Shown here: positions 1 through 64,000 of the stretch, piece after piece
How positions within the stretch are numbered: the first letter of the stretch is position 1
Layout of the letters: each line of letters begins with the position of its first letter
Assembly (NCBI GenBank): GCA_000165345.1
Contig: CM000436.1
Coordinates: 256,001-320,000 of the forward strand
Reading direction: 5' to 3'
Length of the DNA: 64,000 nt
Program-made: the position numbers and the translations under genes
The notes under the pieces: model-generated
The model's database searches: none
What the model saw: the letters and a program-made list of their open reading frames with translations, nothing else
Told to the model about the DNA's origin: nothing

Positions 1-482
1 AAAATCAAACCTCTTCCATCCAACTCAGTAATTACTATAATGACAATAATAATTTATTGAATGGTTTTTCTTTAAAGAATTTCACCATAAAAATTTGATT
101 ATTTTCAACTCGAATTCGAGATTGTTTATTTAATTAACTTTTCTTCTTGAGCTAAACACTTCCTCTTCTCTTCATTATTCAAAAAACTGTGAATCTAAAA
201 TAAACCATTTTGTCTTAAATAATTAACTAAAGTTCTATCGTTTATAAATAATGCAAAATTTTTAAAAAATGCACACAAATTAAGTTGTCCACATGCAACA
301 TTATTATATACCGGTATCAAAAAAATAACAATAATTTGCACGTAACTGCATGACTATTGTCCACATTGAAAAAAACTTTATAAATAAAAATAATGTAATC
401 TAAAAAAAATTATAACTATAACTAAATTTAATGGGAATGAAAATATGATATTAAGTTAAATTAATTGTCTTAAATATAATAA

Positions 483-857
483 TTATCTTCCTTGCTTTTG
501 GAATACCCATTCTGTATTATCTAGAGGACATACATTTCTTGTTTTCAACCATCTAGATATACAGTGCAGGTGAAATGCATGATTACACTGTCCCCAAGTT
601 ACTGTGCATTCCTCGCTTCTTTGAGCAGATCCTGTATTGGCTTGGCATTCTATGCATAAGTCCATAATATGATTCCTACATATTGCGCAGTTATCTACTA
701 CAATATCCCATGACCAAAGTGCAACTGCATTCCATTTCTTTATTTCGAATCTTTTCTGACCAGGTTCTGTGTTTACTGAATTGTTAGCAGTATTATTTTC
801 TTCAATTTTTTGATCAATCATCTCTTCATTAACTTGCTCACAGCTTCTTGTATCCAT
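483..857 (-). CDS. RBX1: RING-box protein 1 (RBX1/ROC1), E3 cullin-RING ligase subunit, 124 aa
   Basis: Full-length match to the RBX1 RING-H2 core ([33 protein letters not shown]...[30 protein letters not shown]). ATG start confirmed on the reverse complement at 857. Confidence 0.9.
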
Positions 858-1494
858 TATACGTATTAATATAATTAAATATAGATATATTTTTTACTAA
901 ATTACCACTCTTATTGTTTTGAAAATGCTCTATTATTAGCTTAAATAACGAGTTGCGCTTTTTGTTTACAAAGATATAGAGAATATAGTACCAACTTACT
1001 TCCTTAAATTTGCATTATAGCTCCTGCTCTTTTTAGAAACGTGCTCTTCTTCTTTTCCTCCCAATAAATTTTCTAAATTATTTTAAGCTTATTTTATTTT
1101 TCTCTCTTCACAATAAACATTTTCCCACATTTTAATTATTAATATTGCAAAGTTACCGCCACAATTAAGGCGGGCCAGTCTGACCGCCTAGAAAGAATGT
1201 CATCGAAGACAATATATAGTTTATATTTTCGTACAAGTTAATTAATTAAACTTAGAAAATCGGTGAATAAATCATTTTTTCACTAACTAGGTTTTATTCT
1301 CCCTGAAGGATTATAAATTTATTCAGTCTGGTTAAAAAATTATTCAATTTTAGTCTTATTGAGCTTTGCAAACTCTGCTCTTTATTCTCTCTTGTTTCCT
1401 TTGGGTTTCAGGAGATAATGTAAAAGACTTAAACTTAAGTAGTTTCGGATAATCTATAAATTGTTCGGGTTTAAAAGCAAGCTATCAAGTAAAT

Positions 1495-2019
1495 ATGGCG
1501 AAGGGTTTGAGAAGTAAGGTAAAGAGAAGGTTTCGTACAGCCAAAAGGCTACTGATTAAGAATACTTTAGAATTAAGTAGAAATACCGAAAAGTCTAATG
1601 CTCTAAGAGAAATTGGAGAAGGTACCTATGTACAAAAAGAAATCCCATTGAATGCCTTCTTGTATCCAGAAAGTAAAAATGCTATTTTTCCACAAAAAAA
1701 CAGAAATGCATCTATTGACTTCAGATCAGAATCTATAAGTAGTATTGCAGGATATATGGGCCCAGGGAATAGACGTAAATACTATCCAGGTGAGGAGATA
1801 CCAATTCTAAGTATTATGGGAGACGGAAATATGACAAATAGTAGAGATGTTGAAATTATAAACACAACTAATATGAATATGAATATTGATAGTACAAATC
1901 AGGTTAAAGATGTAGTTGAGTTCGAAACCGAAAAGAGGCAGGTATCTATTCCTGTGATCAAGGATTCAATTAAAGGAGCATATGAGGCAAGCTTTAAGAA
2001 GAAAAGCAAAAAGAAATGA
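1495..2019 (+). CDS. hypothetical small basic protein (Lys/Arg-rich N- and C-termini), 174 aa
   Basis: Clean ATG ORF (MAKGLRSKVKRRFRTAKR...KKKSKKK). No domain recognised by eye. Sits downstream of a GGCGGG/CCGCC box at about 1161-1195. Confidence 0.5.
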   Translation: MAKGLRSKVKRRFRTAKRLLIKNTLELSRNTEKSNALREIGEGTYVQKEIPLNAFLYPESKNAIFPQKNRNASIDFRSESISSIAGYMGPGNRRKYYPGEEIPILSIMGDGNMTNSRDVEIINTTNMNMNIDSTNQVKDVVEFETEKRQVSIPVIKDSIKGAYEASFKKKSKKK

Positions 2020-2078
2020 GTAAAAGATCTTGTAAAAATTAATATATTTACTTTATTTCAAAGTTAGTAAGCTTTAAT

Positions 2079-3680: not shown

Positions 3681-3826
3681 TCTAAATGTGTCGTAAAAAC
3701 ACCAGAATAGCTTTATTACATTCCATTACAATACCTTTTTTTTCTGTTGAGTGAACCCCACTTTAGTCTTAAATTCTCTCTTCTTTAAAAAAAACACATA
3801 CAAAATAACATATGTTGTATGATAAA

Positions 3827-3856
3827 TTGTGGCGCTTTGGCGCCACAATTTGGCGG
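3827..3856. promoter_or_regulatory. E2F-like inverted repeat TTGTGGCGC-TTTG-GCGCCACAA plus adjacent TTTGGCGG, in the divergent spacer between AP-4 mu (-) and the membrane-protein gene (+)
   Basis: A 9-bp perfect inverted repeat read directly. The GGCGCC core is the Cryptosporidium E2F/DP-type upstream motif family. Confidence 0.65.
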
Positions 3857-6050: not shown

Positions 6051-6690
6051 ACTAATTAATAATTTTAATTATTAACTTTGTAACAATATTAATTGTTTAA
6101 GGAATTTTATTTATTTATTTACATATAAATATTTTATTTATTAATTTTTTTTCCACATTAATTAATTACATGAAAATTACGTGTTTAAATGCAAATTTGC
6201 AAATTATTTTTGTTTAATTGCAATACCGTTGCATGCATCCATGTGGATTGAATAGCCGGTATATAATTTTTAGATCAAGAAATACTTTGTAAAGAAGGAA
6301 AAAATGACATAGAGTAGAATCACTTTAAGTATTGAAATGCGTATAGGGTATGGATTTGTTTTGTTTTTTTCTTCAAGTAAAAAAAAAAAAATGGGTTTTT
6401 TAATCCTTAAAAAATTTAATTTTCAACTATAGAAAAATATTAATTATAATTAGAGAAAATCCCCCAACCGCAAATTACAAAAAAAAAAATGTATTGGCGC
6501 CAAAAGCACACAAATACTAATTAGCAACTTTTTGTATAATTTAGACCAAATAAATAATTTGAGGATTGTGCTTAGTTGTTAGATGCCATAATTAGTATAA
6601 CTTTGAGAGCACAGTATACTTCTATGATCTAGCTCTAGCATCAAAAGGTTTCCTTTAAGAGATTTTAGATTGATATGCATTCAGTTCGAG

Positions 6691-9600
6691 ATGTCTTTAA
6701 GAGAACTGGTAGTGGGATCGACTCAGATGCTTGTGGAGAGTGTATTAAGGAGGATAAATGAAAATTTGCTGAATTACTTTATCAATTTGCCAGAAAGTAT
6801 TTGGTTGAGTGGGTTTTTAGACCAAGTAAATTTGAAAGATGTAATGTTAAATACAAGAGCGTTTTCCAATGAATGGTATTCTTTAGATATACCTTTCAGA
6901 CTTAAATATGGACATATAAGAAGAGCAAGTATCCAAGTTTTGTTAGCTCACTCAAAATTGGTGATGGAAGTTGAAGGGGTTGTATTAATTGTAGGCCCAA
7001 ATTTGGCTTATAAATCATACGAGGATGTGATAAGGAATTCAATGGACAATGTATTTGGGTTGGTTGAACTATTTAAGCATATCCAAACAATTAGATACAA
7101 CAATGATAGTTTTGAGGAAGGTTTAGGATCCCAAAAAGGGGAAGTTTCTGAGAATCTACTCAATATTAACTCGTCAAGTAAAGAAGGATTAAACGCACTT
7201 CTTAGATGGCTTTTTAGGTATGTTCCTGATTTGTCCCTTAGTATTAGAAATCTTTACATTCGCTATGAAGATGATGTGTTGGATACTTCTCATCCAATGT
7301 CAGCAGGAATTCATATTAATTCTGTGACTATTAATCCCGCTAGAAACTGTTGGGAATTTCAATGGCCAACTGAAGAGAAAGAACAAGTTGGATTTACTTC
7401 AAAGGGTAGCTCAGACTCTGAGACTGATCCAACCAATTTAGGTAAAACACAGCATCCTCTTTCAATTAATAATTCTAGTGCAGATCCAAGGGGTATTTTC
7501 AGTATTAAAGTTAAAGGTTTAAGCGCCTTTTGGGATGATGAATCTGCTCCATTTATTCCTATTTCATTGCTAGAGCAAACTGAAGCTTCAAATGATAAAT
7601 TTGGAGTATTTTCAGCAGTAACTATTGATGATATCCAGAATCTAGTCAACTCTAATCTACATTATCACACAAGGATTATTTCAAATCTTAATATTTCTGC
7701 TCAGTTTGGGTTTGTAAATCCTTTCATCCACAAGCTTTCTAACGAAAAAAGTCGTCAAAGCAATGATATCAGTGCTAATGGTAGTGATAATAGTAGTAGC
7801 AATAGTATGATTAATGGTAGTAACTTTGGACAAGGCTCTTCCTCTGAACCAATATCTTCTCAAGAATCCTCGTCTTCATCGTCATCTTCTACTTCCAAAA
7901 ATTCAACTGAAAATAATGGTTATATAGCAAAAGATTATTTGAACGATTACTATACTGGTTCTAATATTGCTACATTACTGAATATTAATATACAGAGTGG
8001 ATTTGAAATTAATGTTTATCCACAAATGATTCACGGACTTGTTAGATTCGTAACTCTCTATAATCAGTTTCAATTTTGGACACAAGTAAGGAGGTTTAGA
8101 CCAATTGAAAGGCCAGGAAGTGGTAAAACTCCTGCTGAAGTCAGAGCAATTTGTAGAGATTGGTGGATCTTTAGTCTTAAATATTACAGAAATATCAAAT
8201 ACAAAGACAACAAACAAAATAGTCTTAGAGATGAAATTAACTACAGGGTTGAAAGAAAAAAATATATCAAGATTATCAAAAAATGGAAATGGATCGAATT
8301 TATGATTACTGGCCAAAAACCTATTTTGAACTCTGGGACCATTATACACAGGACTGGTACTAATGAGTATAATGCATGCAAATTTGGCGGGATGAGTGGG
8401 CCCGCCGAATTTGGCAAGATGAATGAATATGCTAAAAGTATTGGAACTTCTATTTCATTTCTGGATTCGAATTTGAATGGTAATCCAAGTTTGTCATCAA
8501 TTCTCGGTCTAAGTTCTCTTATTATTAATCATTTGGGTGTATCTTTTAATTTAAGTAGATATTGGCAATACGATGTTGAAGTCTTACAAAAGGTATCAGA
8601 GAAAAGTGATGATATGAGATGTATATTAACTGTATTGCAACACCATTCTTATTGGGTGGTATCTCAATGGCATATTTTAGCAGAACGTGAGTTTGAAATT
8701 GAGTTTGCTTTATTTCAAAATAGTTCAACTATCCAAAAAAAGCAAAAAGGAGCTATGGATACATTTTCTAATGTAAACCATAATATGGATATCAAAACTA
8801 AGAATATCTTAACTTTACTAGCTTATGGCCTTCATATTCAGACTGATTCATCAGTTTGGGAGTTAATTAGTAAGTTAAGAGATAGTTATATTGATCTTAT
8901 TAGGAGAATAACGCAAGATGACTCTTTGAGTAACCGTATTAAAGAGAGTCTTCAATCTAAATCATCACTTTTGAGTGGAGGATCAGTTTTTGAATTTAAA
9001 CTAACTTCAGGAATTCCATCAACGGTACCGACACAAATATCTAATTTTATACAAGAAAATATTGAAAGACATCCTTATGTTATTTTTGGAACAGGAATCT
9101 TTAAGAAAAGTTTAATTGAAACTGATATTTTATCTGACTTCTTTGGTGTGGGGTTGAATTCTAAGTTACTAATGAAGAGACGAGATTGGCATGCAATCAG
9201 GCTTAGGTTACATTTATGGGGGAGGTTTTATGATGAATATTTTGAAGCCTTTCCATTAGCTATTTCAGAGACTTTAGAGATTAATCAATTAATGAACTTG
9301 AGCTACCACTTAGACTTCCAGCAAATGAACAAATTGTTTAGTATTTCAATGCAAAGTGATTCTTTATGTTTCTCAACTTTAGTTTCTTCTCAGGCTACAT
9401 CTTCAAATCCTATGGAAGATATTGATATGTCAATGGGAGTTACAAATGTGACTATGGCAAGACCAAAGAGTCAACAAATATCGATCATTGAAAGAGATCC
9501 AGAGTTTTCATTATCTTTGTCATCTTCTTCAACTAAACTTGAGAAATCTGAGGAGAATAGGAATGAAATGGATCATATTGGAAAGGATAATCATACAGAT

Positions 9601-13008: not shown

Positions 13009-13230
13009 TAGTTAGGCCATTATATTATTTTCTAGTAATTTTAGCCTTTCCATTAACAATTAATTTATATCTTTTGAATATTTAATCATCTCAATCACTA
13101 CTGAAGCTACTACTCTCAATAATGCATGTGGGGGGCAATTGCATGACTTCCCGCCTAAAAGTTGCATGTGGAGAGAAGAAAAGTGTGATCAATAAATGAG
13201 AGAATAATGAAATAAAATGAATAAATAGAA

Positions 13231-14613: not shown

Positions 14614-17600
14614 ATGCAAAGTGATTTTCAGTATAAAGATCTTTTGACAGTTTTTAACATTCCAATTTCACTTTGGGTACAAAATGGGACTCATTTATTT
14701 CATAAGAATACTTCAACTTTGGTTGATAAAAATGGTAAAAGACTTTGTATTAAGGTAAGTTAAAAGGTGAAATTAATAAAATTAAATATTATATTATTAA
14801 TAAAATAAATTGATATATAGTGTATTATTGATATGTTTAAAAATAACCAAAAATCAAGTACATATTTATCACAGATTTGTGAAGATTTGATGTTGGTAAG
14901 TTAAAATAGATTAATAAAATTCATTTTCATTAAAAAAAAAAAAAAAAAAATTCAGATGATAAAATGTGAGAGAGGTAAAGGAGTTGTAAGATTTATTATA
15001 AGTGAGATTTTGGGAAATGAAAGTAATTTCATTATTGAAGAAATTAATAAAGTTGACGTAAGTTTTTGAAGTATATTTAAAAAATTATTAATGAAATAAT
15101 AAAAATAATATAATTTAAATGATAAATTTAATAATTAGGATGAAATGTTACTTAATAATCTTATAAATTTGAAGTTAACATTATTAAACAAACATTTTTC
15201 AATATCAGAAAATAAACAAAGACAAAAATTAAATGAAAATATATTAAATATAATAATTAAAAGTGTAAGTAAATTGTAATAAATATTTTATTATAAATAT
15301 TGATTTAATATAATTAATTTAACAAATAATTTTAGATGAATAATTTGAATATAAGAATGAGATCAATGGCAAAATTAATATATATACTATTTGATGATAG
15401 ACTTTCAATATACTCGAATAGTTTAATAGATAGAATAGTGGAAGATACAAAAAATCTATCAAGCTTTGGAAAGATGATTTTGAGAATGGACATAGAGAAT
15501 ATTCAATATTTAATTCCTATAATAGTTAAATTAATAGAATGCAATCCTGAGAAAGTAATAAATAATTTATTGATTGATAAAGGACTACATTTATCAAGAT
15601 TATTATGTGAAGTTACGGATAAGAAGATTTATTTTGAATATATTTTAGAGTTTTATTTACATATATTAAATAACTATCCAAATCAATTTGGAAATTTATT
15701 AATAGATAACAGTAATAGATTGGATATAAAAAGTAATAATAGTAAAGAAGAGTTATCTTTGAACATTTTAGTCGGAATAGAAAAGATGGCAATAATTCTA
15801 GCAAGATCAAGTAAATACTCTAAAAGCAATAATTATCATTCATCCAGAAACTTGGATATTGATAAATTTCAAGATACAGAATTTTCAATGAGTGACTTGG
15901 AATACATGCAGCAGGGAGGTTCTATTCCCAAGATGGGTAATTTTTTAATTAATAATTCTATGAATGAAAATAATATATTAGAGGAGATGGGAGAGCATGG
16001 TGAAAGGAGTTTGAGGATGAATATAAGCAATAGTAGTATTGGAAGTAGCATTATGAACATGAATAATAATCACATAAGTTATGGAAGAAAGGATTTTATG
16101 GAAATAAATGAATTGGAAGAAAAGAAAGTTGTTGATGGAATTAATATGTTTGGATTATTGAGAAATAGGGAAGAAGATGATAATAGATTAATGAAGAAAT
16201 TGATTCAATTTTTTAAAGGTTTTATGCTATATAAAAATAAAATGGAATTATTTTGGAATTCTGATAAAGAAAAGATAGATTTAGAAGATGATGAAGTAGA
16301 TTCAAATATAGATAATAACTGCAAAAAAAACAGATGGATTATGGAAGGAGAGTGTTTTGAAGTTGTTCATAAAATAATTGAATGGATAATAGAATTACTA
16401 AGAAATAGTATAGAAGTTGAATTAGATAACTTAGCTTTAGATTGTATTTTGCAAGTATTCACACAAGAAAAGTGCTGTAATTATGAGGAAGAGAAATCAG
16501 AAGCTGATGAAGAGCTTTCAGACCTTAATATAAATCAAAAAGATAATGATAATAATAAAAACAATTTATTGGAAAAAAATTCCGCAAATATAGAATTAAT
16601 AAATGAAGATAAATCGGAAGATTTTATTTTTAATATGAAACCTTTAAATATGAAATCCAAAAGAGTAACTTTCAAAAGAATTGAAGAAATTCCACCAAAA
16701 AAAAAATTAATAACTTTTAATGATGTGGATAAAAATAAATTACGTGTAAATGCATGCAAGCAAGGCGGGTCAAAATGTGACAATAATACCGGTATAGAAC
16801 AAAATAAATCATGTGGAAAATTATGTTTTCACCAGATTTTTGTAATAAAACATGGCCAGTATTTGTTGGATATTTTTTTAGAACTTTTTGATGATTATTT
16901 AAGAAAATTTGGATTAAATTTTATAAGAAGAAAGAGTGGAAATGCAAAGAGTTTATCATTTTATGACCAAAGTTACAAATATATAATCGATAATGAGCAG
17001 CAGATTGAGGAGGTATTATATAAAATAATTCAGGGAATAAATAATATTTCAGATGGGGTTGCTATTCAATCATGTCCTAGACAGATATTTGCAATAAGTT
17101 GGTTTATGGAATTTATTTTATACGGTTTTTCGAATGAGGAATCTGTATTAAAAAGTAAGCCACCAGTTCCTTTGTATGGTTCATCAAGTATGGATTTAGT
17201 AATGAAAGCTGCTAATATGGATCAACCATTGGAGCATGCACTATTAAGTATTTCTACAAAATTTAGTGAGGAAAGTAATCAAAATAATGAAGAAGTGAAT
17301 CAAATTCAAAAAGGATTAATTAATCAGATTGATACTATAAATCAGGTTCAAGTAGAAGTTGTTAACAAATTAATCTCTCTAACAGAAAGGATGTGTAAAT
17401 GTTTGTATAGCAAGGGTAAAAGAAACTCTAAATTAGAAGGTGAACATTTTAATGGAAGCTTTTATCAAGTGGATATCAAAAAGTTATGGAAACTTAATGG
17501 TACAGTTTACAGTAGGGATCTGCTACTAGAATATTTTTCAAATATCCTCCAAATTACAGAAAAGTTATTCGGTTTTAAAGGTGTTAAAGTTATTCAATTC

Positions 17601-20876: not shown

Positions 20877-21137
20877 TATCAAATTCAAATATTTACTCAA
20901 AATTTTGAATTTTTTATTCTTAATATATATTGCTAAAATTTCCAACCCACTCATAATATTTGCAAGTGGACAAATGCATGCAATGCAAATGCATGCATGT
21001 GCATGTATTTGCATTATGACATCCAAGCCTGACAAAAAGAAAATGTATATTATACATAGGAGGAAAAAAAATCAAGTTTTAACAATATAAACAAACATAT
21101 TAAAGATAGACAGAATTAATTATTCAAAAGGTTAAAA

Positions 21138-26878: not shown

Positions 26879-27712
26879 TTAAATAGTAATCAAAATGTAT
26901 CAAAATTCAAGCCAAGCTCCACTTCATATATATTATTAATTAAATGGTGAAAGAAAAATCCAAATATCAAGTTTGAAAGAAATTATTAATTAATTTGATA
27001 AATGACTTTTCAGATTATCAATTTTAACTTCACACTAAGATAAAAAAAATTAATTTGTGGCAAATTTCGGAATTAAAGACAAATTTCTACGCCTTTTTCA
27101 AACTTACCTAGAATATATTGAAAAAAGAATTTAAGAGAAGCCAATGCAATACTGAACTTCCTTTTTCAAAATACTTTAATTCATAAAAATCCCCACAGAT
27201 ATTCCTCTTTTTTTTAATTTCCTCTTTTTTTTTTTTTAATCTCTTTCTCCTTTCTTTACAATTTCCTTATTTAATTTTGTGTTTATTTTTTACATTTAGA
27301 CTCACAAAATCAGTTTTTGGCGCCGAGTAGCGCCAACAGATCAAAGAAATTTATTATAAAATAATTTTATGACAAGTTATGTAAGAATGGAAATAAAAAT
27401 TTTTAACAAGATTTAACAATTTCAGAAAAAATTCAGAGTTGCATATAAAAACAGTTTTGAGAAATTATATTCTATTTAACATTTTTGATCATTTTACCAT
27501 TTATTTTTGATATCTATCAACTTTATTTAAAAAAAAAAAAAAAAAGCCCCCACAAACGCACTTTAGCTGATACCGGCATTATTTCATAATTATCCACATG
27601 CATTAATTATTAATAATAATTTTCATGTGGACGCATGCATTAATTGTCAAAGTCTGCAAATAAAAAGCACCGGCATATAATTTTAGTTTGATAAATGTTT
27701 GTACGTGTGGGT

Positions 27713-27765
<53 letters not shown>

Positions 27766-28842
27766 ATAATATTCTTTACAGAAATTAAGAGATTGAAATA
27801 TATTTTGTAGGAAATGGAAGAATATCAATGGAATATATAAGTGAGAAACTTTATTATTGTGAATAAAGAGGAGGAAATGGGAATGATATGTGAAAAGAAG
27901 ATTTAAAAAAAATTAAGTAAAAAGTTTTCTATTAATATTCAAAACAAGTATTTATTAAATTAACAAATCACGAATTCATATTATTTAATTGGTAAAAGTA
28001 TTTAAATTAAATTATTAATCATTTTACTAAGCAAAAATTCACTTAATTATATCAAGATACCAAAATTCCGTTTTGGCGGCAAACACACAAAATTATGATA
28101 CTTGGGAATTGGATTGAATAGAGGGTGGATGTGGAAGGATATTATATGATGCATTGGATTTTATTTTAATGATCTTAACATCAATATCATTTATTAATAA
28201 TATTATTATTATTTATAATAACAATAATATACCTATAAATAAATATTATTTTATTGCTATTTAATTGCAATATTTTTTCTTATTGGTTTTATTTCAAAAA
28301 AGTTGATACTTGAGTAATAAATACAAAGTAGGAAAGAAATTGTGATTAAGATAAAATATTAAAGTGTATTTTATGGCAAATAATATGGTATAAAGATCGG
28401 TATAAAAAGGGGAATATACGTGAACTAAGGTTATTTTTCATATGTAAACAGGTAATAAAGTGTGTGAATTTAAAGATTTGTTTTGTTTTTTATTGTCAAG
28501 CACAAAATTTAATGGTGCTCAATATATTTTAGTAAGGCCAAGGTAATTTTGGATCAATTTTAAGGGTTTAATAGTTATATAAATCAGGTATATTTAGAAA
28601 CAGGGTTAAAGCAAAAGTTAAACCTATATGAAACTCATTATTAAAAGGAAATCCAAATAAAGTTATTAAGATACATATAAGGGAGTGTAATTGATAATTA
28701 GGGTGTTTTTAAACATAACAGAAATAATAAAAGGTAACAGGTTCAGATTCAGGTTAATTTCAGGTTGGGAATTATAATCAAAAGTGTCGTTTATTTTAAT
28801 TTTTAATATTTTACATTTAAGAAATTTTTAGAATTAGAGAAA

Positions 28843-34987: not shown

Positions 34988-35226
34988 ATGCCAATTACGT
35001 GGTGCATGCGCATGATTTGCGCGCCTCAAAGTTTCTCCCCACACTTTTGGAGGCAGTGTATAATTTTAGGAATAATTAGTCAAAAAAAGGGGAATTATTC
35101 GATATAGAAAATTTAAAAGCTGATTAAATAACTGGTCATTTTTATTACATATGATATCATGTAGAAACTGTGTATGACACTTTTTTTGGTTTTTCTTTTT
35201 TCTCCCAAAATTTCAACAAGGAAGAC

Positions 35227-37404: not shown

Positions 37405-37425
37405 GGCGGGCAATTTTTGCCGCCC
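37405..37425. promoter_or_regulatory. inverted pair of GGCGGG boxes (GGCGGGCAA-TTT-TTGCCGCCC) upstream of the 37600 gene
   Basis: Direct read; flanked by CCACATGCAAATATGCAATGG. Confidence 0.6.
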
Positions 37426-38694: not shown

Positions 38695-39051
38695 TTTCTA
38701 CTTTCTTTTCTCCATTATATTTTAATATAATGCATGTAGTCAACAACATGTGGCGCGTGTTTGGCGCTGGCGGGCTACTGTATGTCAAGAAAAAACTGAA
38801 TTTAGTGAATTAAATCTAATTAGGAAATAGCTTGAAACTAAAACGAAGGAGAATAATCTTAATTGAAAAGAATACTGGAATTTAGACAAAAGGTTATAGA
38901 TTTCTTGTATTTTTTTTAGTTTTAACTCCTTTATCTTTAATTTTATAATTTTGTTATTTTCAATTAAGCTTAATAGTTTTTGAGACCATAATTATTATAC
39001 GATAAGTCTATAAGGTTAGAAAAGTATAGAGAGAGCTTGAAAGGTTGGAAA

Positions 39052-42957: not shown

Positions 42958-43653
42958 GATTTTGTTTTAATTTCAAACTACTTAATTTACTTGGATAATT
43001 TTAGATAGATAGAAAAAGAGAGATAATGAAGGAAAAAGAAAAAAAAACAAGAAACAAATCAATTCAATATTAATCGCTATATTACTAGTCCATAGGAATA
43101 ATCTGTCAATTTTACGATTTGTACTCCAATTTTACTTTCTTTCATTATATTATTCATTTAAATATATTATTTCTATAATCTTATTCAACGAATCCTTTTT
43201 TTTATTTTTCTTTCAAATTTGATCTTAATTCATCTTTTTTTTTCCCCTATTGAAATTAACCGATATAATCAATAAATTAAAAAAAAGTTTCCCACATGCG
43301 GCGGGAAAATATTGGCGCCTCATGCCAGATTAATTTATATAATTTTATATAATGGATCATTAAGTTAAATAATAGTGCAGTTAATAATAATAAAAGTTAA
43401 TAATTGTAATATAATAATAATATTAATATTTGAAAAATTAGTATTAAAAATATATTTATATATAAATAAATATACATAAATATATAAACATTTATTTATA
43501 AATATATATTGGAGTTTAGTGGGAAAGAAAAAAGATCAAGTAAATAAGAAGGTTTGTAGAAGATTGTGTGCAAAGAATTTAAGTAATATTAGGATAGTGT
43601 AAATAAGTTTGGATATTATATATAAATATAGAAAAGTAAGTGTTTGGTAGAAA

Positions 43654-45360: not shown

Positions 45361-45962
45361 TCTTATTGAAATACCATAAAATTAATAATATGCTTATTTT
45401 TCTATCTTTCCATGTATTTATTAGATTTATATATAATATATATTATATAGCCAAAATGTACTAATATAAGCATTAATTGTTTATATTACCATTTCTTTCT
45501 TAAATAGAAATTCAAAATCCAATAAGAAATAATGCAAAGAAAAGATATAAATTCAATATTAAGAACTGAAATTAATATGAATGAATGTGAAGTAGAAAAA
45601 CTATTATTGTAATCACTTGATAACTTGTATTATTTGTGGGGAAAAGTAAAAAGCTGAAAAATTAAGAAATCTATAATTTATTAACCAATTATTTTATAAA
45701 TGAAATAGACCATTAAAAAAATGAATCTAATTAATGATTTAAATCCTTATTTTATTTCCTTCTTACAATCAAAATTTATTATTAAAATTATAAATGATTA
45801 CCCCCCAACCGCTTTTATAGAAAGAATTTGCGATTTAGGCGGGAAAGATTGCATGCAGAAATGTAGTAGAGAATAACAATAATAACAGTGGTAATAGTAA
45901 TAATAATAATAGTAATAATAATAAAAATAATAATTAATTAATTAATTAAACAATTAAAAAAT

Positions 45963-47760: not shown

Positions 47761-47782
47761 CGGCGCCAAACATTTGGCGCCG
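47761..47782. promoter_or_regulatory. perfect 10-bp inverted repeat CGGCGCCAAA-ca-TTTGGCGCCG (double E2F-like site) in the divergent promoter between HBS1-like (-) and the Sec14-like gene (+); TGCATGCA box at ~48052
   Basis: Direct read. Confidence 0.7.
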
Positions 47783-48256
47783 GTTCGGTGTAAAGTCTAA
47801 TTTTAATATTATTGCATTGAATAGTGCATGGAGGGAAAGAAAGAAAAAAAGATATTATGAAAATGGAAGTTAACAAGTAGATAAAGTAAAAATTGAAAAA
47901 TTTGTATATATTTATAAGTAAATTTATATTAGTTATAGATTTGTAATGGATTTATAAGAGAAAATAATCACAAATTAAAGAATAATAATTTAGACTTTAA
48001 AAAAAAAAAAATTATATTAAAAAAATTTTAGGGGTAAATATTAAAAAAAAAATGCATGCAGAGTACCGGCATTATAATTATTAGTATTTTTATTAAAAAA
48101 AAAACAAATAAATAAATAAATTTTTATTAATATAAATTTAGGATTAGAAATATTAATATAAATTAAAATTAACTAATTAAATAATAAATACAATTTCTTA
48201 GAATGATAATAAAGTTTAAAAACTTTGATTTACTTGATTAAAAAGTTAATACAAAA

Positions 48257-49870: not shown

Positions 49871-49890
49871 GGCGCCAAATAATTGGCGCC
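49871..49890. promoter_or_regulatory. inverted repeat GGCGCCAA-ATAA-TTGGCGCC upstream of the roadblock-like small gene
   Basis: Direct read. Confidence 0.65.
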
Positions 49891-50475: not shown

Positions 50476-50881
50476 GAGTGAATTCTTCACAATTTATATC
50501 TTTATTGAATTTGAGTATGAATCAAGTTCTTTAAAAATAGGTCTAATAAGTAAAAAGTATTAATAATAGATATTAATATTCCAATGAAATTTAATAACTT
50601 TTTAAAAATATATATCTTTATGTATGTAAATATATCTATATGCATAAATAAAAATGTTAAAGCTTGGAAATATATAATATTTATCTATTTACCTGTATTC
50701 ATACATATATATAGATAAATAGGTAAATATTTATTAGTTTTATTTCTTTCCACTTGTGAATGGATATTATCCGTGATTATATCAACTTTTCCCCTTCCCC
50801 TCATATTTGGCGCTCAAAGGTACCGTTGTATGTAATAATTTACTGAGGGAAAAAAAGGATTATTAAGCATTAAATAAATAA

Positions 50882-51081: not shown

Positions 51082-52199
<1,118 letters not shown>

Positions 52200-52970
52200 A
52201 TGCATTAATTAGTCATTTTGGTAGACGATATACTGCTACTATTACTACTATTCCTATATCTATTACCTATAATAATTTACTGTCTTTCTTCGAAAAATTC
52301 CCGGCTGCAAACATGCATTTTACCTGCATGCGTTTTTTTCAATGTGGACAAAAAAGGATAATGCTTACGTGTTTTTTTTAGTGGATAAAAAGAGTCTGAT
52401 ACCGGTATGCAAGTGCACACATTTTTTTTTTTTTAACTAATTTCATAATTTTTTTTTTTAAATCGATAATAAAAAATTAGGAATAGCAAATGAATTAATT
52501 GTTTTAATTTTTGTTATTAAGAAGAAATTAAATGGCAATGAGTGAATTAATATTTGTCGAGCAATGTGTTATAGTTATCAGAGATCTCTAAACAAAAATT
52601 CGAGTAATAATGAGGGGTGAAAGTGGATATTCATTATATATAAAGTATATAGGAGATATATATTATAAATATAATTTAAGATATAGTACTCTTCGACCGA
52701 TAATGGCGGGAAGATCTACTGAAGTTATTTAAATATTGCAAATTTGCACCATACCCACAGTGGAAATGAATACAAGGGAATAATTATTTTGAATAGAATT
52801 CGAAAAAACAAGTATAATAATAAAGAAAATAAATCTTGAGTGTAATTCAAGTATAAACAAATATTATTAATAAATAAATATATTTTTATTTATATATATT
52901 TATCTATATACATATTTGCATATATTCGGTGTTTCTGAAATACATTAATATAATTTTAAAAAACAAAAAG

Positions 52971-56632: not shown

Positions 56633-57918
56633 TATTGTAAACAGTTCTTTATATACTAGTGATAATTTTCCAATTTATTTCTAATAATAATTAAAATATT
56701 AATATTAATAATAATACTAATATTAATATTAATATACCCTTGATTAATTTTCTCTTTTTTTATCAACTAGATTATTATAAATTATATATTTATTTTCTTT
56801 AAATCACTATTTCATACAATATTACATCTTACATATTTCATTAATTAATTATATTATTATTTCTTTATTAAATTTTAATATTCGCCGGTACTAAATTAAT
56901 TTGTGGGAGCATTTCCCGCCCAACTCCTCATATTTCTATTATATCTTTTGCATTATAATTTATATATTTTATTAATACTATTTATCCCGCCAAATTCTCA
57001 AAATTGTGCTTGCTTATCAACCAAATGGAAAAATTACTATAAAGAAATAAGGTTAAAGAAACTAGAGTTTACAAAAAAAAGTAAAATACTGAAAGAATAA
57101 ATCCAAACCAGATTTTATTCATAATTTTCTATATATATTCTAGTCATGGAATGAAAGAAAAGGTCGAATTTTTATCTTAATATTCATATTTACTTGTTAT
57201 AATTAACATTTTTCCTTTAATTTATGTAAAATGTGCACATAATTCAATTATTCTGATTTTGCCGCCCAAATATTCTTTAATTTCTGTTGTGTGTATGTTT
57301 TGTTTTCGTGTAATTTGCATGAATGTATAAATAACAAAGGGCGGCAGCATGTAAAATTTTAATAAGATTACTAATTAAAAGCTATAATTATATTAAAAAA
57401 TATCTATAAAGTTAAACATAATGAAAGTAATATAAGATAATTTAATTTTTAAATTAAATATAAATATTATATTTTTTACTTTTTTCGAGAAAATAAAGTT
57501 AATTTTTATACAAAATATTCGAATATTGCAAATAATTTAATAAAATACAAAAATGCATGACTTTGCCGCCTACACCGGTATATAATTTTGAATTAAAAAA
57601 AAAATTACACGTAATATTAAGAGGAAAAGAATAGGATTTTCTCTTTATTGAAATAACGATGACGATTATTAATATTATCATTATTGTTACTATTACTGTT
57701 GTAAGTGTTACTAATATTAATTTAAGAGTTGTTAATTATTATTGATTTCAATGCATTCAATATAAATGCTATCAAATGATAATAATAAGAGTTTTTTATT
57801 AATATTAGTAATAAAGGAAGCTACATTAATAGTATTTTTCACTTTTTTAATAGTTTTTAGTAGGAAAAAAAAAGTTACAATTAGATTTCCTTCTACTTGA
57901 ATATTACTGTTGTTTTAC

Positions 57919-60784: not shown

Positions 60785-60826
60785 TCCCGCCAAAATGCGT
60801 ATGCATGCAGAAAATCTGGCGCCAAT
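60785..60826. promoter_or_regulatory. motif cluster TTCCCGCCAAAA / TGCATGCA / TGGCGCCAAT upstream of coronin (-)
   Basis: Direct read. Three distinct known motif classes within 42 bp. Confidence 0.65.
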
Positions 60827-61197: not shown

Positions 61198-61904
61198 TTA
61201 ATTATAGTTAGTTTCAATAGATAATGATTCATTTAAAGAGTAATCAGAAAGATCATCAATAATATCGTCTAACTCATATAAATACCTTTCTTTTTTATTT
61301 TTCCATTTTTCTTTAAGTTCATTTAGAACTAATTTCTTTTTATTATTTATTATATTTCTTTTATCTATTGTAGTATTATTTAAAGAAGAATTCAAAGTTT
61401 CTTCTGAAATAGTTGATTCTATACTATTTTCAGCATGTAATGTTTCTTCTGATTTAGTTAAAGTTTCTTCCAATTGTTCATTTCCTGCTTTAACATGCAT
61501 TTCCATCCTTGTATATTGTAATAATCCACATGTTCTACATCTGCAAATACTAGTATCTAAAAATTTACAAATATTAAAGTTGAAAATTTTAATCTAGCTT
61601 AGAAAGTTCTTGGAATTAATCTCATTTCAAGACTTTCCCGCCATTTCTAAATTACTCTTACCTTTTGGTACTATGGTATATGCAATACATCTAGGACATA
61701 ATACTTTTATGCATTGAAAGGCTTTACCAAAATATGGATATCCAACAAAATTAATGCATTGACAGAAATAACATTTAATAAAAATACCCACTAATTATTT
61801 ATATATAGTTATAGGTTTTATAATAATTCTTATTTTTTTTTTTTTAACTTACTAACATATTCATTCTTAGTATTACATTCAGAGCAAACCACTACATTAA
61901 CCAT
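61198..61904 (-). CDS. Cys-rich zinc-ribbon protein (four CxxC-type pairs) with acidic/Ser-rich tail, 3 exons, ~179 aa
   Basis: Minus-strand exons 61853..61904 (MVNVVVCSECNTKNEYV), 61662..61790 (MGIFIKCYFCQCINFVGYPYFGKAFQCIKVLCPRCIAYTIVPK), 61198..61556 (DTSICRCRTCGLLQYTRMEMHVKAGNEQ...). Donors GTAAGT and GTAAGA; acceptors AATTAG and TTTTTAG; phases 1/1. The alternative GTTAGT donor after TAT would put a stop in exon 2, which supports the model given. The ORF track shows only the 3' exon (61198..61506). Confidence 0.55.
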
Positions 61905-62089
61905 GGTTTCCCCTCCATTTGTTTTATTTTTTTCATAGAATACTCCTATTTTAATTAATTTATTCTTCTCTAAAAACTCTAATCTCTCTTTTATTTGTTT
62001 TAATTTCCTTTTTTTTCTTTCCTTTAATTTTTTTTATTTTTAATTTTATATTATATCCATAAATTATTATCTTTATTGCAAATTCAGAT

Positions 62090-62144
62090 TTTCCCGCCAT
62101 TTGTGAGGTATCTAAAATTTGCATTTCCACGCTTTGGCGCCAAT
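62090..62144. promoter_or_regulatory. TTTTCCCGCCATTT and TTTGGCGCCAAT boxes in the divergent promoter between the zinc-ribbon gene (-) and the 62410 gene (+)
   Basis: Direct read. Confidence 0.65.
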
Positions 62145-62409
62145 ATGAGGGGAAAATTATGGGTAACTGATTAAAAGAAATTGAATTGGAATTAAATTGG
62201 AGGAAAAAAAAGGAAAAAAAAAAAAAAGCAAAATTAAGAGAAGAAGAATTAGAAAGTTAAAGTTTGGAATTTGAGATCCATTTAAGGAGTAAATATTGAA
62301 GGAGGAAAATATAAACAAAAATAAATAAATAAAAATCCAACTATAAATTGATTCATATGTATAAAAAATAAGTGATCAATCACTTTAATTTTGGATTATA
62401 GTATTAATA

Positions 62410-64000
62410 ATGTTTGGGAAACCAAATAGTAAAGGAGTGGGGGGTAACAAATTAGTTATTGGTGCTAATGTGAGAAATAACAAAGATTTAGATATTCCAA
62501 TATCTTTTGGAAGATCTTCTAAGGACTATATAATAGAAAAAAAGAAAGAAAAAGAAAAGAGGATTTATGAAAGAATTAAAGGAAATAAAATGAAAATTAT
62601 ATCTTATTATGTATTACAATACAATTCATATAAACTTAAAAAAAGAGAATTTTGTAATGATTTGATTCATTTAATATCACAAAATCATAAAGACATAAAC
62701 AAATTGATTCAAATCTTTAGATTCACTCTAAAAATTAGTTCTAATGGTATTGAACAAGATATTGAAAGATTTAATATGATTATTGAGAATATTCATACAA
62801 ATTTTGAGAAAGTTTCTATTGAAATATCATTCAGTAATCTTTTATTTCTCTTTAGAAATTGTCTAATATTAATATTTCTTAATGATCAAAATAAAATTCA
62901 TAATATTAATAAAAATTTGGTAAAAAATCTTGCTGATCAAATATTTTACTCATTTTTTTCAAGATCTAATTTTCAAGATCAAAAGGTACCGAATATGCAA
63001 ATTAATAAGAAAAATTTTATTAACATGATTTTTAATTTTTTAATGATTGATTTATTTTTTATTAGATATTTTGAATTAAAAATCTTAAATAAAGAACTTG
63101 AAAATGAAATTATTATTGATATATTTAATGAAGTTTTTCAACTTTGTATATCCAAATTATCCAGCAAAGATAAATTGAATTTTTATTATATGGGTAAAGA
63201 TTTAATAGATTTTCCTAAAAGTGATCACTTTCTATTAGAAAAATCTAAAAAATTGAGTAAATACAATAATTCTCAAATGGAAATATTTTTTAAAAATAGA
63301 TATTTTTGGATTATATCTTGTTTATTTACTATTTTATTTAAAACTAACAATATTATTACAAAAGTTAAAACTCAAGAATTATTTCAAACTTATTTAGAAC
63401 TTTTGGATTTGGATTCTTTTCAAAATTGGATCATGAATGAAAATCAATATTCTATTAGAGTTATTAAAAGTCCATTTCAACAAATTCCTCCAAATTCACC
63501 CTTTTCTTTACTATTACTAAATTATTCTTTCTTTAATTATATTCAAGTTAATAAGAATTATTGTAAATTATCCAAAGTTATCAAACTTAATGAATTAAAG
63601 AAAATGAAAGAAACTGATCAAAAAGAATTTGTAAATACTATTGAAAATAATCTTTTGTCTATTTACTATATAATCAGTTCTTGGAATTTCTCACCAGATA
63701 CTTTAATTACTATAGACGAGACAATTTCTAACAAGAATTATACTAATAGAGATGAAATTATTCAAATGATTAGTTTTTTATTTCAAATAATTATACAAAA
63801 TAATAATACACAAATCAATTCAGATCAATCAAAATTTATCAAAGAAAAATTAAAGATTATGTATTTGATTCGTTTATATACTTTATTTTTAGATTTTCAA
63901 GGGAAATTCTTACTATTAAGTACTTATATAAAAAATACAGATATTATTAAAGATCAAAATATATTTTTTGGAATAAATAATCAACAATTAAATGAAAATC
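62410..64000 (+). CDS. hypothetical protein, 5' part only (ORF open to the window edge, >530 aa)
   Basis: ATG at 62410 (MFGKPNSKGVGGNKLVIGANVRNNKDLDIPISFGRSSKDYII...). No in-frame stop through 64000. Absent from the ORF track, presumably because it runs off the window. Preceded by a TTTCCCGCC / TTTGGCGCCAAT box pair at 62090-62144. Confidence 0.55.
   Translation, partial: MFGKPNSKGVGGNKLVIGANVRNNKDLDIPISFGRSSKDYIIEKKKEKEKRIYERIKGNKMKIISYYVLQYNSYKLKKREFCNDLIHLISQNHKDINKLIQIFRFTLKISSNGIEQDIERFNMIIENIHTNFEKVSIEISFSNLLFLFRNCLILIFLNDQNKIHNINKNLVKNLADQIFYSFFSRSNFQDQKVPNMQINKKNFINMIFNFLMIDLFFIRYFELKILNKELENEIIIDIFNEVFQLCISKLSSKDKLNFYYMGKDLIDFPKSDHFLLEKSKKLSKYNNSQMEIFFKNRYFWIISCLFTILFKTNNIITKVKTQELFQTYLELLDLDSFQNWIMNENQYSIRVIKSPFQQIPPNSPFSLLLLNYSFFNYIQVNKNYCKLSKVIKLNELKKMKETDQKEFVNTIENNLLSIYYIISSWNFSPDTLITIDETISNKNYTNRDEIIQMISFLFQIIIQNNNTQINSDQSKFIKEKLKIMYLIRLYTLFLDFQGKFLLLSTYIKNTDIIKDQNIFFGINNQQLNEN

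What the first reader, a model, noticed from the sequence alone, without database searches (positions are those of the whole stretch)
1..64000. GGCGCC-core E2F-like palindromes and TGCATGCA boxes mark almost every intergenic spacer and identify the genome type
Boxes of the form TTTGGCGCCAAA, GGCGGGAAA/TTTCCCGCC and TTTGCCGCC occur at about 1161-1195, 3827-3856, 6494-6505, 13146-13154, 27316-27324, 28072-28084, 33381-33387, 33631-33639, 35017-35026, 37405-37425, 38751-38775, 43299-43319, 45838-45856, 47761-47782, 49871-49890, 50807-50819, 56913-56995, 57257-57270, 57339-57347, 57561-57569, 60785-60826 and 62090-62144. TGCATGCA/GCATGC boxes are often within 30 bp of them. Many are perfect inverted repeats, for example 47761-47782 and 3827-3856. 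They concentrate in divergent promoters: RBX1/1495, AP4M/4011, NAF1/ARP, HBS1/Sec14 and Znf/62410. This is the promoter grammar reported for Cryptosporidium (E2F/DP-like and AP2-like motifs). It makes a Cryptosporidium-like apicomplexan origin very likely despite the unusually high intron density seen here.
Basis: partly seen in the sequence, partly recalled or inferred. Interest (0 to 1): 0.55.

Follow-up and report, generated by a model that had tools for sequence, protein, structure and literature searches.

The report
Known Cryptosporidium E2F and AP2 promoter boxes
The window is a stretch of Cryptosporidium parvum chromosome 8, and the GC-rich GGCGCC-type and TGCATGCA boxes between its genes are real, conserved promoter elements, but this promoter grammar has been published since 2003-2013, so the finding is correct and ordinary.

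Summary
All 22 listed sites exist and lie between genes. GGCGCC occurs 13 times against 0.22 expected, TTTSSCGC 18 against 0.69, and TGCATGCA 9 against 0.34. In a 27-gene model, 12/13 GGCGCC and 17/18 TTTSSCGC fall in the 24% of bases that are intergenic. E2F-like boxes sit in 18/22 promoter-bearing spacers and in 0/5 convergent spacers, a median 276 bp upstream of the ATG. They are the top non-repetitive words in an unbiased k-mer ranking. They are conserved in orthologous spacers of C. ubiquitum, C. canis and C. felis, and more weakly in C. bovis and C. andersoni. The source is C. parvum chromosome 8, shown by exact protein matches and 99.8-100% nucleotide identity.

The interpretation (E2F/DP-like plus ApiAP2 promoter grammar) is supported and already published. 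Three details need correction:
- The exact word TTTGGCGCCAAA never occurs.
- Divergent promoters are not preferred over tandem ones.
- TGCATG lies within 30 bp of 12/32 boxes, and full GCATGC of only 4/32.

The intron remark is partly right: 9/27 gene models have introns, against about 11% genome-wide.

I did not find three side leads in the papers read:
- Paired boxes sit at a fixed 13-14 bp spacing.
- A conserved TACCGGTA palindrome clusters with TGCATG and ATGTGGA.
- Promoter-like motif clusters lie inside long coding regions.

The parts
1169..1174 (.). E2F-like box GGCGGG, flanked by ACCGCC half-boxes at 1161-1195, in the RBX1(-)/174-aa(+) divergent spacer
   Evidence: about 300 bp from both ATGs
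3824..3856 (.). E2F-like boxes TTTGGCGCC and TTTGGCGG inside a 12-nt-arm inverted repeat, in the AP-mu(-)/679-aa(+) divergent spacer
6494..6505 (.). E2F-like box TTGGCGCCAAAA, 186 bp upstream of the 2105-aa gene
6230..6237 (.). AP2_1 box TGCATGCA, followed by CATGTGG and CCGGTA at 6240-6261
13146..13155 (.). E2F-like box TTCCCGCC flanked by three TGCATG boxes (13123, 13140, 13163), upstream of the EF-hand gene
20975..20997 (.). Two TGCATGCA boxes 15 bp apart in the Rad21 promoter spacer, which has no E2F-like box
27316..27324 (.). E2F-like box TTTGGCGCC in the 2-kb Rab/Arf(-)/694-aa(+) spacer, at a local conservation peak (0.87-0.92 identity to C. ubiquitum)
28072..28084 (.). E2F-like box TTTGGCGGCAAAC, at a second conservation peak (0.90-0.92) in the same spacer
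33381..33387 (.). E2F-like box TGGCGCC in the NAF1(-)/ARP(+) divergent spacer, 105 bp from the NAF1 ATG
   Evidence: aligned to TTTGGCGCC in C. ubiquitum
33631..33639 (.). E2F-like box TTGGCGCCA, 179 bp upstream of ARP
35004..35026 (.). GCATGC followed by TTGCGCGCC (SGCGCS core), upstream of Sec1
37405..37424 (.). Paired boxes GGCGGGCAA-N-TTGCCGCC with cores 14 bp apart, upstream of the 364-aa gene
38752..38774 (.). Triple box GGCGCG / TTTGGCGC / GGCGGG, upstream of Nrap
43300..43319 (.). Paired boxes GGCGGGAAAATATTGGCGCC with cores 14 bp apart, upstream of ERD2
   Evidence: orthologous pairs in C. ubiquitum and C. canis
45838..45857 (.). GGCGGGAAA plus TGCATGCA composite, upstream of the 114-aa gene (-)
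   Evidence: GCATGC plus CCCGCC conserved in C. ubiquitum and C. canis; CCCGCC in C. felis and C. andersoni
47761..47782 (.). Paired inverted boxes CGGCGCCAAA-CA-TTTGGCGCCG (cores 14 bp apart) in the HBS1(-)/Sec14(+) divergent spacer
   Evidence: the only invariant island in the 5-species alignment A1
48053..48069 (.). TGCATGCAGAGTACCGG block, conserved as GCCGGTACTCTGCATGCA in C. ubiquitum and C. canis
49871..49890 (.). Paired inverted boxes GGCGCCAA-ATAA-TTGGCGCC with cores 14 bp apart, 136 bp upstream of Pcc1
50806..50819 (.). E2F-like box TTTGGCGCTCAAAG, upstream of the cytidylyltransferase gene
52705..52710 (.).
   Evidence: conserved in C. ubiquitum
56912..56991 (.). TTTCCCGCC and CCCGCCAAA boxes, upstream of the amino-acid transporter gene (-)
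57258..57570 (.). Three GCCGCC-type boxes (57258 TTTGCCGCC, 57340 GGCGGC, 57562 TTTGCCGCC) in the 1.3-kb transporter/coronin spacer
   Evidence: weakly conserved
60786..60823 (.). Composite CCCGCCAAAA - TGCATGCA - GGCGCC with cores 32 bp apart, upstream of coronin (-)
   Evidence: same 32-bp composite in C. ubiquitum
62090..62141 (.). TTTCCCGCC and TTTGGCGCC boxes in the 179-aa(-)/HECT(+) divergent spacer
8373..8406 (.). Intragenic promoter-like cluster inside the 2105-aa CDS: TGCATGCA plus a GGCGGG/CCCGCC pair 15 bp apart
16724..16816 (.). Intragenic cluster inside the cgd8_990 CDS: ATGTGGA, TACGT, TGCATGCA, GGCGGG, TACCGGTA, CATGTGG
   Evidence: (88% identical, ungapped, in C. ubiquitum with all boxes kept)
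31324..31347 (.). GCATGC plus GGCGCC in the 3' end of the NAF1 CDS. This is the only genic GGCGCC
   Evidence: not aligned in C. ubiquitum

Best explanation
The window is Cryptosporidium parvum chromosome 8. It starts at about 247.6 kb in CP029787.1 coordinates and covers the cgd8_990 neighbourhood.

The GC-rich boxes are GGCGCC, TTTSSCGC, GGCGGGAAA/TTTCCCGCC and GCCGCC. They are the genus-wide E2F/DP-type promoter elements. They sit about 110-480 bp upstream of start codons, in the AT-rich spacers that carry promoters. Where two genes diverge they serve both genes. Their most likely mode of action is recruitment of the parasite's E2F/DP winged-helix heterodimers to an open-chromatin promoter core. 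The TGCATG(CA) boxes nearby are ApiAP2 sites (the AP2_1 class) and add stage-specific control.

Shown here: the boxes are enriched, restricted to promoter-bearing spacers, positioned in a window upstream of the ATG, and under purifying selection.

Inferred or taken from the literature: which proteins bind the boxes, and that the boxes lie in open chromatin.
For: Source organism:
- Exact protein matches to C. parvum.
- 99.8-100% nucleotide identity to C. parvum chromosome 8 assemblies.

Enrichment:
- GGCGCC 13 against 0.22, TTTSSCGC 18 against 0.69, TGCATGCA 9 against 0.34.
- TGGCGC(CA) and TGCATG(CA) are the top non-low-complexity words in an unbiased k-mer ranking of intergenic DNA.

Location:
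- 12/13 GGCGCC and 17/18 TTTSSCGC are intergenic.
- E2F-like boxes are in 18/22 promoter-bearing spacers and 0/5 convergent spacers. At promoter-spacer density 3.7 would be expected in the convergent ones, P(0)=0.024.
- C. ubiquitum likewise has no cores in its 4 convergent spacers.
- Distance to the nearest ATG transcribed away from the box: median 276 bp, IQR 192-365, minimum 109.

Conservation:
- Every species shows the same restriction to intergenic DNA.
- 21/28 C. parvum sites align to an E2F-like core in C. ubiquitum.
- Core hexamers are perfectly conserved in 16/26 cases, against 8.6% of other spacer hexamers and 17% of GC-rich ones (Fisher p=2e-11 and 2e-6).
- In the 5-species alignment of the Sec14|HBS1 spacer (57% mean column identity), the only runs of adjacent invariant columns (5 and 6 long) are GCGCC and GGCGCC.
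- Conservation peaks in the 2-kb spacer coincide with the two boxes there.

Literature:
[quoted passage not shown] C. parvum keeps E2F and DP genes that other apicomplexans lack (PMC3734150; PMC4117751; PMC12246861).
- Sporozoite ATAC-seq peaks at gene 5' ends are dominated by E2F motifs, and more than half are annotated as bidirectional promoters (bioRxiv 10.1101/2025.01.17.633476).
- TGCATGCA is bound by the AP2 domains of cgd2_3490 and cgd1_3520 on protein-binding microarrays.
Against: - The papers I read report no ChIP, CUT&RUN or reporter mutagenesis for E2F/DP in Cryptosporidium. The 2025 review states that most regulatory components lack functional validation.
- GCCGCC-type variants also resemble the plant AP2/ERF GCC box (my own knowledge), so a different binder is possible for some boxes.
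- Four promoter-bearing spacers have no E2F-like box: 1-482, 14071-14613, 20877-21137 and 23572-23943 (the last is the GlyRS promoter). The element is therefore not obligatory.
- Seven of the 39 E2F-like site clusters and 3 of 9 TGCATGCA lie inside annotated coding spans.
- Transcription start sites were not available, so position is measured from the ATG only.
- The conservation figures come from alignments that may be drawn towards GC-rich words. The GC-matched control only partly addresses this.
Confidence: 0.85

Rival explanations
1. The GC-rich boxes are real promoter elements but are bound by a factor other than E2F/DP. Candidates are an ApiAP2 domain with GCC-box-like specificity, or a zinc-finger protein. 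On this reading the resemblance to E2F sites is coincidental for some or all variants.
For: The papers I read contain no occupancy data. GCCGCC/GGCGGC variants (28075, 37419, 57258, 57340, 57562) match the plant ERF GCC-box core (my own knowledge). They are the least conserved class in C. ubiquitum.
Against: The T-rich and A-rich flanks fit the E2F consensus: TTTSSCGC occurs 18 times against 0.69 expected. Protein-binding microarrays of C. parvum AP2 domains recovered TGCAT, CACACA and G-box specificities. That paper lists the E2F motif among upstream motifs recognised by non-AP2 proteins. C. parvum is the apicomplexan that retains E2F/DP, and it is also the one with this motif dominating its promoters.
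Confidence: 0.1
2. The boxes act mainly as structural chromatin signals rather than as activator binding sites. They could exclude nucleosomes, act as boundary elements, or mark replication origins in an AT-rich genome.
For: They are isolated GC-rich palindromes in 23% GC spacers. They coincide with open chromatin in the sporozoite ATAC-seq study.
Against: Conservation is specific to the sequence of the 6-9 bp core rather than to local GC content. GC-rich control hexamers are conserved at 17%, against 62% for the cores. The boxes are absent from convergent spacers of comparable composition. In the published expression-cluster analysis the motif is over-represented upstream of co-expressed gene clusters.
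Confidence: 0.04
3. The pattern is a chance or compositional artefact, or the boxes are 3'-end signals (terminator or polyadenylation) rather than promoter signals.
For: None beyond the small sample. Some boxes lie close to an upstream stop codon: 35017 is 30 bp and 38751 is 57 bp from the stop.
Against: None of 100 shuffles reaches the observed counts. There are no boxes in the 5 spacers that contain only 3' ends, and none in the 4 such spacers of C. ubiquitum. The boxes are conserved across species.
Confidence: 0.01

Closest known systems
C. parvum E2F-like upstream motifs (Motif 3 DTTGSCGCCH, Motif 4 TTTGGCGGGAAV; Bankier 2003 as cited, Oberstaller 2013 PMC3734150; ATAC-seq preprint 10.1101/2025.01.17.633476)
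   Same: The sequences, the organism and the location upstream of genes all match. The dominance over other motifs and the link with bidirectional promoters and open chromatin also match.
   Different: Nothing essential differs. Neither the fixed 13-14 bp spacing of paired boxes nor its conservation across species appears in the passages I searched. PMC7840661 reports that some lncRNA promoters have two occurrences of the motif. It found no clear pattern in motif spacing relative to the start site.
ApiAP2 AP2_1 site TGCATGCA / TGCATGYR (Oberstaller 2013 and 2014; PMC11078545)
   Same: The palindrome and the upstream enrichment are the same. The extended form TGCATGTG(G), i.e. CCACATGCA, found here matches the TGCATGYR motif reported for macrogamont-specific promoters.
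   Different: In this window it is less strictly intergenic than the E2F-like box. 3 of 9 TGCATGCA and 19 of 52 TGCATG/CATGCA lie in coding spans.
Canonical eukaryotic E2F/DP sites (TTTSSCGC; plant TTTCCCGCC/TTTGGCGGG), including paired inverted sites in the adenovirus E2 and mammalian E2F1 and DHFR promoters
   Same: The core and its T/A flanks match. The plant-type variants are quoted in PMC3734150. Inverted double sites in promoters are a classic E2F arrangement (my own knowledge).
   Different: Here the element marks a large share of all promoters rather than a cell-cycle regulon. Spacing is 13-14 bp centre to centre. [quoted passage not shown]

Membership tests
E2F/DP binding site | 6-bp CG core (SGCGCS or CCCGCC-type) flanked by T-rich and A-rich sequence (TTTSSCGC) | tested here: met
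   18 TTTSSCGC against 0.69 expected. 37 GGCGSS positions (50 strand hits) against 1.92 expected strand hits. Sequences are listed. The ideal 12-mer TTTGGCGCCAAA itself has 0 hits.
E2F/DP binding site | Located in promoters, upstream of transcription units | tested here: met
   17/18 are intergenic. Present in 18/22 promoter-bearing spacers and 0/5 convergent ones. Median distance to the ATG is 276 bp. Start sites are not mapped here.
E2F/DP binding site | The box itself is under purifying selection | tested here: met
   16/26 cores are perfectly conserved in C. ubiquitum, against 8.6% (all) and 17% (GC-rich) control hexamers. The boxes form the only runs of adjacent invariant columns (GCGCC, GGCGCC) in alignment A1.
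E2F/DP binding site | The organism encodes E2F and DP winged-helix proteins | not tested
   The genes are not in this window. The literature reports two or three E2F and two DP genes in C. parvum.
E2F/DP binding site | Physical occupancy by E2F/DP and dependence of transcription on the box | not testable with these tools
   The papers read contain no ChIP or reporter data. The only indirect support is the dominance of the E2F motif in ATAC-seq peaks.
ApiAP2 AP2_1 site (TGCATGCA) | Palindromic TGCATGCA/GCATGC word enriched upstream of genes | tested here: met
   9 against 0.34 expected. Intergenic density is 6.4 times genic density for the 8-mer and 5.6 times for TGCATG. It ranks second in the k-mer ranking.
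ApiAP2 AP2_1 site (TGCATGCA) | Conserved in orthologous spacers | tested here: met
   14/26 TGCATG hexamers are perfectly conserved in C. ubiquitum, against 8.6% for controls. GCATGC is retained in the Sec14|HBS1 spacer of 5 species.
ApiAP2 AP2_1 site (TGCATGCA) | Bound by an ApiAP2 domain | not testable with these tools
   The literature reports protein-binding microarray results for cgd2_3490 and cgd1_3520.
Cryptosporidium parvum nuclear genome | Sequence identity to reference assemblies and conserved genus-wide synteny | tested here: met
   Exact protein matches to C. parvum Iowa II entries. 100% identity over 12,019 bp to CP029787.1 and 99.8-99.99% to other C. parvum chromosome 8 assemblies, against about 97% to C. 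hominis. Gene order is conserved in C. ubiquitum, C. canis, C. felis, C. bovis and C. andersoni.

The most novel reading that the evidence does not exclude
Two architectural features may add to the published motif lists.

(1) Many C. parvum promoters use a fixed double box, GGCGSSAAA-N2-TTTGGCGCC, rather than a single E2F-like box. The cores are 14 bp apart in C. parvum, C. canis and C. felis, and 13 bp apart in C. ubiquitum. The spacing is kept while the bases between the cores change. This suggests cooperative head-to-head binding of two E2F/DP dimers.

(2) A second promoter class is built from a conserved TACCGGTA palindrome together with TGCATG(TGG), ATGTGGA and TACGT. It occurs in spacers, in one convergent spacer, and inside a long coding region. 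It may drive sexual-stage or non-coding transcripts.

Neither feature appeared in the texts I searched.
Probability: 0.4. Interest if true: 0.4.

Novelty: already known. Interest (0 to 1): 0.15.

Why it matters
The finding shows that a reader can identify a Cryptosporidium genome from its promoter words alone, and that those words are functional elements under selection. Both facts are already in the literature, so the result adds a clean local confirmation rather than new biology. Two things could matter for the open question of how two E2F and two DP proteins control a large share of promoters in this parasite. One is the fixed 13-14 bp pairing of boxes. The other is the unreported TACCGGTA module. 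Each gives a concrete, testable site architecture for binding and reporter experiments.

Tried and rejected
- Chance or base composition. Rejected by shuffles and because intergenic DNA is more AT-rich than coding DNA.
- 3'-end signal. Rejected because convergent spacers have none, in C. parvum or in C. ubiquitum.
- Preference for divergent promoters. Rejected: 2.12 against 2.47 sites per kb.
- Hidden RNA genes in the spacers as an explanation of the conserved islands. No Rfam family reached its gathering score in the window. Nothing reached E<=0.1 in the 2-kb spacer, and there are no tRNAs.
- Independent C. parvum loci on other chromosomes, sought through paralogues of the amino-acid transporter. 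The search returned only orthologues. The spacing and TACCGGTA leads therefore rest on this locus and its orthologues only.
- Literature search for ACCGGT with Cryptosporidium. It returned only primer sequences. CCGG and CCGGTA are absent from the text of PMC3734150 and PMC4117751, but motifs shown only in figures would not be found this way.
- A fixed orientation of the asymmetric GGCGGGAAA variant relative to the gene. By inspection both orientations occur. This was not analysed formally.

Full report
**What the window is**

The sequence is 27.4% GC and is packed with long ORFs of eukaryotic type. These include an AP-complex mu subunit, Rad21, GlyRS, NAF1, an actin-related protein, Sec1, Nrap, ERD2, an HBS1-like GTPase, Sec14 and coronin.

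- The GlyRS ORF's best matches are all Cryptosporidium, then other alveolates.
- Three ORFs are exact matches to C. parvum database entries: XP_627007.1 (C. parvum Iowa II), GlyRS EAK89327.1, and coronin QOY39869.1/WRK33865.1.
- Nucleotide identity is 100% over 12,019 bp to CP029787.1 and 99.8-99.99% to three other C. parvum chromosome 8 assemblies. It is about 96.9-97.0% to C. hominis.

The window is therefore C. parvum chromosome 8, starting at about 247.6 kb in CP029787.1 coordinates.

**Gene model**

I built a 27-gene model from gene calls on public assemblies, mapped to the window and checked for start and stop codons. It leaves 27 spacers totalling 15,198 bp, or 23.7% of the window, at 22.9% GC. 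Six spacers are divergent, 16 tandem and 5 convergent.

**Check of the observation**

Every one of the 22 listed ranges contains the stated box, and all lie between genes.

| Word | Observed | Expected from dinucleotide shuffles |
|---|---|---|
| GGCGCC | 13 | 0.22 |
| TTTSSCGC | 18 | 0.69 |
| GGCGSS (strand hits) | 50 | 1.92 |
| TGCATGCA | 9 | 0.34 |

- 12/13 GGCGCC and 17/18 TTTSSCGC are intergenic, a density 40-55 times that in genic DNA. TGCATG/CATGCA is enriched 5.6-fold.
- In an unbiased ranking of all 6- to 8-mers in intergenic DNA against a Markov expectation, TGGCGC(CA) and TGCATG(CA) are the top words that are not simple repeats.
- Corrections: the ideal 12-mer TTTGGCGCCAAA never occurs. 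Strict GGCGCC is present in 9 of 22 promoter-bearing spacers, while the wider family is present in 18 of 22.

**Evidence that the boxes are promoter elements**

- None of the 5 convergent spacers (1,581 bp, 3' ends only) has an E2F-like box. At promoter-spacer density 3.7 would be expected, P(0)=0.024. The 4 convergent spacers of C. ubiquitum also have none.
- The boxes lie a median 276 bp from the nearest ATG transcribed away from them (IQR 192-365, none closer than 109 bp).
- Density is the same in divergent (2.12/kb) and tandem (2.47/kb) spacers. The boxes mark promoters in general, not divergent promoters in particular.
- TGCATG/CATGCA lies within 30 bp of 12 of 32 boxes, against 3.2 expected when the AP2 sites are shuffled within their own spacers (p about 6e-4). 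Full GCATGC does so for only 4 of 32.

**Conservation across species**

I fetched syntenic loci from C. ubiquitum (52.3 kb after merging), C. canis, C. felis, C. bovis and C. andersoni. Gene order is conserved in all of them.

- In every species the E2F-like words are essentially confined to intergenic DNA. In C. ubiquitum GGCGCC is 11 intergenic against 0 genic. In C. bovis GGCGC is 7 against 0, and in C. andersoni GGCGG is 7 against 0. Density is lower in the two distant species, and the preferred variant shifts.
- In C. parvum/C. ubiquitum spacer alignments (48-70% identity), 21 of 28 C. parvum sites align to an E2F-like core.
- Core hexamers are perfectly conserved in 16/26 cases. The rate is 8.6% for all other spacer hexamers and 17% for GC-rich ones (Fisher p=2e-11 and 2e-6). 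TGCATG is conserved in 14/26 cases.
- The five-species alignment of the Sec14|HBS1 spacer has 57% mean column identity. Its only runs of adjacent invariant columns (5 and 6 long) are GCGCC and GGCGCC of the double box, which lies 155-206 bp upstream of the HBS1 ATG in all five species.
- In the 2-kb Rab/Arf|694-aa spacer, the two conservation peaks (0.87-0.92 identity) sit exactly on the boxes at 27316 and 28072.

**Mechanism**

Shown here: the boxes are selectively maintained cis-elements restricted to promoter-bearing spacers, at a constrained distance from the ATG.

Taken from the literature:
- C. parvum retains E2F and DP genes that other apicomplexans lack (PMC3734150; PMC4117751; PMC12246861).
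- Sporozoite ATAC-seq peaks at 5' ends are dominated by E2F motifs, and more than half are annotated as bidirectional promoters (bioRxiv 10.1101/2025.01.17.633476).
- TGCATGCA is bound by the AP2 domains of cgd2_3490 and cgd1_3520 on microarrays. TGCATGYR marks macrogamont-specific promoters.

Inferred: E2F/DP heterodimers bind these boxes and set up the promoter core, serving both genes where they diverge. ApiAP2 factors on the nearby TGCATG boxes add stage specificity. The papers I read contain no occupancy or mutagenesis data, so the identity of the binder remains the weakest step.

**Comparison with what is known, and novelty**

The boxes are the published C. parvum E2F-like motifs (DTTGSCGCCH, TTTGGCGGGAAV) and AP2_1 (table). 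The finding is a correct rediscovery and its novelty is 'already known'.

The remark about intron density is partly right. Nine of 27 gene models here contain introns: the EF-hand gene, cgd8_990-1020, Rad21, Rab/Arf, the 114-aa gene, Sec14, Pcc1, the cytidylyltransferase and the 179-aa gene. These follow from span against product length. The genome-wide figure is 10.8% (PMC4637869), giving binomial p=0.0015. Most genes are still single ORFs, which is typical of Cryptosporidium.

**Side leads**

(a) Paired boxes
- Among adjacent GGCGSS cores no more than 40 bp apart, 4 of 7 in the window are exactly 14 bp apart: 37405, 43300, 47762 and 49871. The chance that any one distance is shared this often is about 8e-4.
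- Across all species, 14 of 23 close pairs are 13-14 bp apart. All four short pairs in C. ubiquitum are 13 bp apart.
- The spacing is kept while the bases between the cores differ (AAACATTT, GTTTTAT, AAACTTTT, AATTATTT).
- Many of these pairs are orthologous, so there are only about five independent loci.

(b) A third palindrome
- TACCGGTA/ATACCGGT is enriched: TACCGGTA 4 against 0.06 expected, and ATACCGGT 7 intergenic against 0.10.
- It is conserved in C. ubiquitum, with 6/8 hexamers intact.
- It clusters with TGCATG(TGG), ATGTGGA and TACGT.
- It is not in the 25-motif table of PMC3734150, nor in the texts I searched.

(c) Promoter-like clusters inside coding regions
- These lie at 8373-8406, 16724-16816 and 31324-31347.
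- The second keeps all its boxes in C. ubiquitum.
- They fit the report that antisense lncRNAs of C. parvum have E2F and AP2_1 motifs within 100 bp upstream (PMC7840661).

**Limits**

- Transcription start sites, chromatin data and binding data for this locus were not available to me.
- All conservation statistics depend on pairwise alignments of AT-rich spacers.
- The side leads rest on about 64 kb and its orthologues, because no independent C. parvum loci could be fetched.

Noticed in passing
window 37405-37424, 43300-43319, 47762-47781, 49871-49890; L013 9800/9813, 14020/14033, 19882/19895; L014 766, 2801; L015 8032, 9832: Paired E2F-like cores sit at a fixed distance: exactly 14 bp apart in C. 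parvum, C. canis and C. felis, and 13 bp in C. ubiquitum. The consensus is GGCGSSAAA-N2-TTTGGCGCC. 14 of 23 close pairs across species are 13-14 bp apart. The spacing is conserved while the intervening bases vary.
   Followed up: partly
window 289-316, 6230-6262, 27568-27640, 48053-48069, 52333-52413, 57554-57581: A third conserved palindrome, TACCGGTA/ATACCGGT, is enriched: TACCGGTA 4 against 0.06 expected, and ATACCGGT 7 intergenic against 0.10. It clusters with TGCATG(TGG), ATGTGGA/TCCACAT and TACGT. 6/8 hexamers are intact in C. ubiquitum. It is absent from the published motif tables and texts I could search.
   Followed up: partly
window 54829-54946: The 710-bp convergent spacer between the 520-aa gene and the amino-acid transporter carries a TACCGGTA/TACGT/ATGTGGA/TGCATG module. 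The module is conserved in C. ubiquitum (L013 2641-2750). This could be the promoter of an unannotated transcript in a spacer that should hold only 3' ends.
   Followed up: partly
window 8373-8406, 16724-16816, 31324-31347: Promoter-like motif clusters lie inside long coding regions: TGCATGCA plus paired GGCGGG/CCCGCC, and a full TACCGGTA module. The cgd8_990 cluster keeps every box in C. ubiquitum (88% identity, ungapped). These are candidate internal or antisense lncRNA promoters, in line with PMC7840661.
   Followed up: partly
window 26861-28842: A 2-kb spacer between the Rab/Arf-like gene and the 694-aa gene has no ORF longer than 36 aa, no Rfam hit and no tRNA. Its length is conserved in C. 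ubiquitum (1,943 bp) at 65% identity. It may hold a long non-coding transcript.
   Followed up: partly
window 13400-14070, 14614-20876, 21138-23571, 26062-26860, 44694-45360, 48257-49556, 50026-50475, 51082-52199, 61198-61904: Nine of 27 gene models in the window contain introns, about three times the 10.8% reported genome-wide for C. parvum.
   Followed up: partly
L016 (C. bovis) and L017 (C. andersoni), whole loci: In the two distant species the E2F-like words are still exclusively intergenic, but they are 3-5 times less dense. The preferred variant also shifts, to GGCGG/CCGCCA-type in C. andersoni and GGCGC in C. bovis.
   Followed up: partly
window 14614-23571: Gene models for cgd8_990 to the Rad21-like gene disagree strongly between assemblies. 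Versions include 1303+389 aa, 1375 aa, 1744 aa and 1760 aa, and a 2515-aa fusion with Rad21 in one C. hominis annotation.
   Followed up: no
window 47783-47800 (minus-strand view in alignment A1, columns about 517-535): A block AGACYTTACAC directly beside the double E2F-like box of the Sec14|HBS1 spacer is conserved in C. parvum, C. ubiquitum, C. canis and C. felis. Many boxes also carry an ACA(T) flank (GGCGCCACAT / ATGTGGCGCC).
   Followed up: no
window 60786-60823; C. ubiquitum merged sequence 46373-46410: A 38-bp composite, CCCGCCAAAA - TGCATGCA - GGCGCC with cores 32 bp apart, lies upstream of coronin. It is conserved almost base for base in C. ubiquitum.
   Followed up: partly
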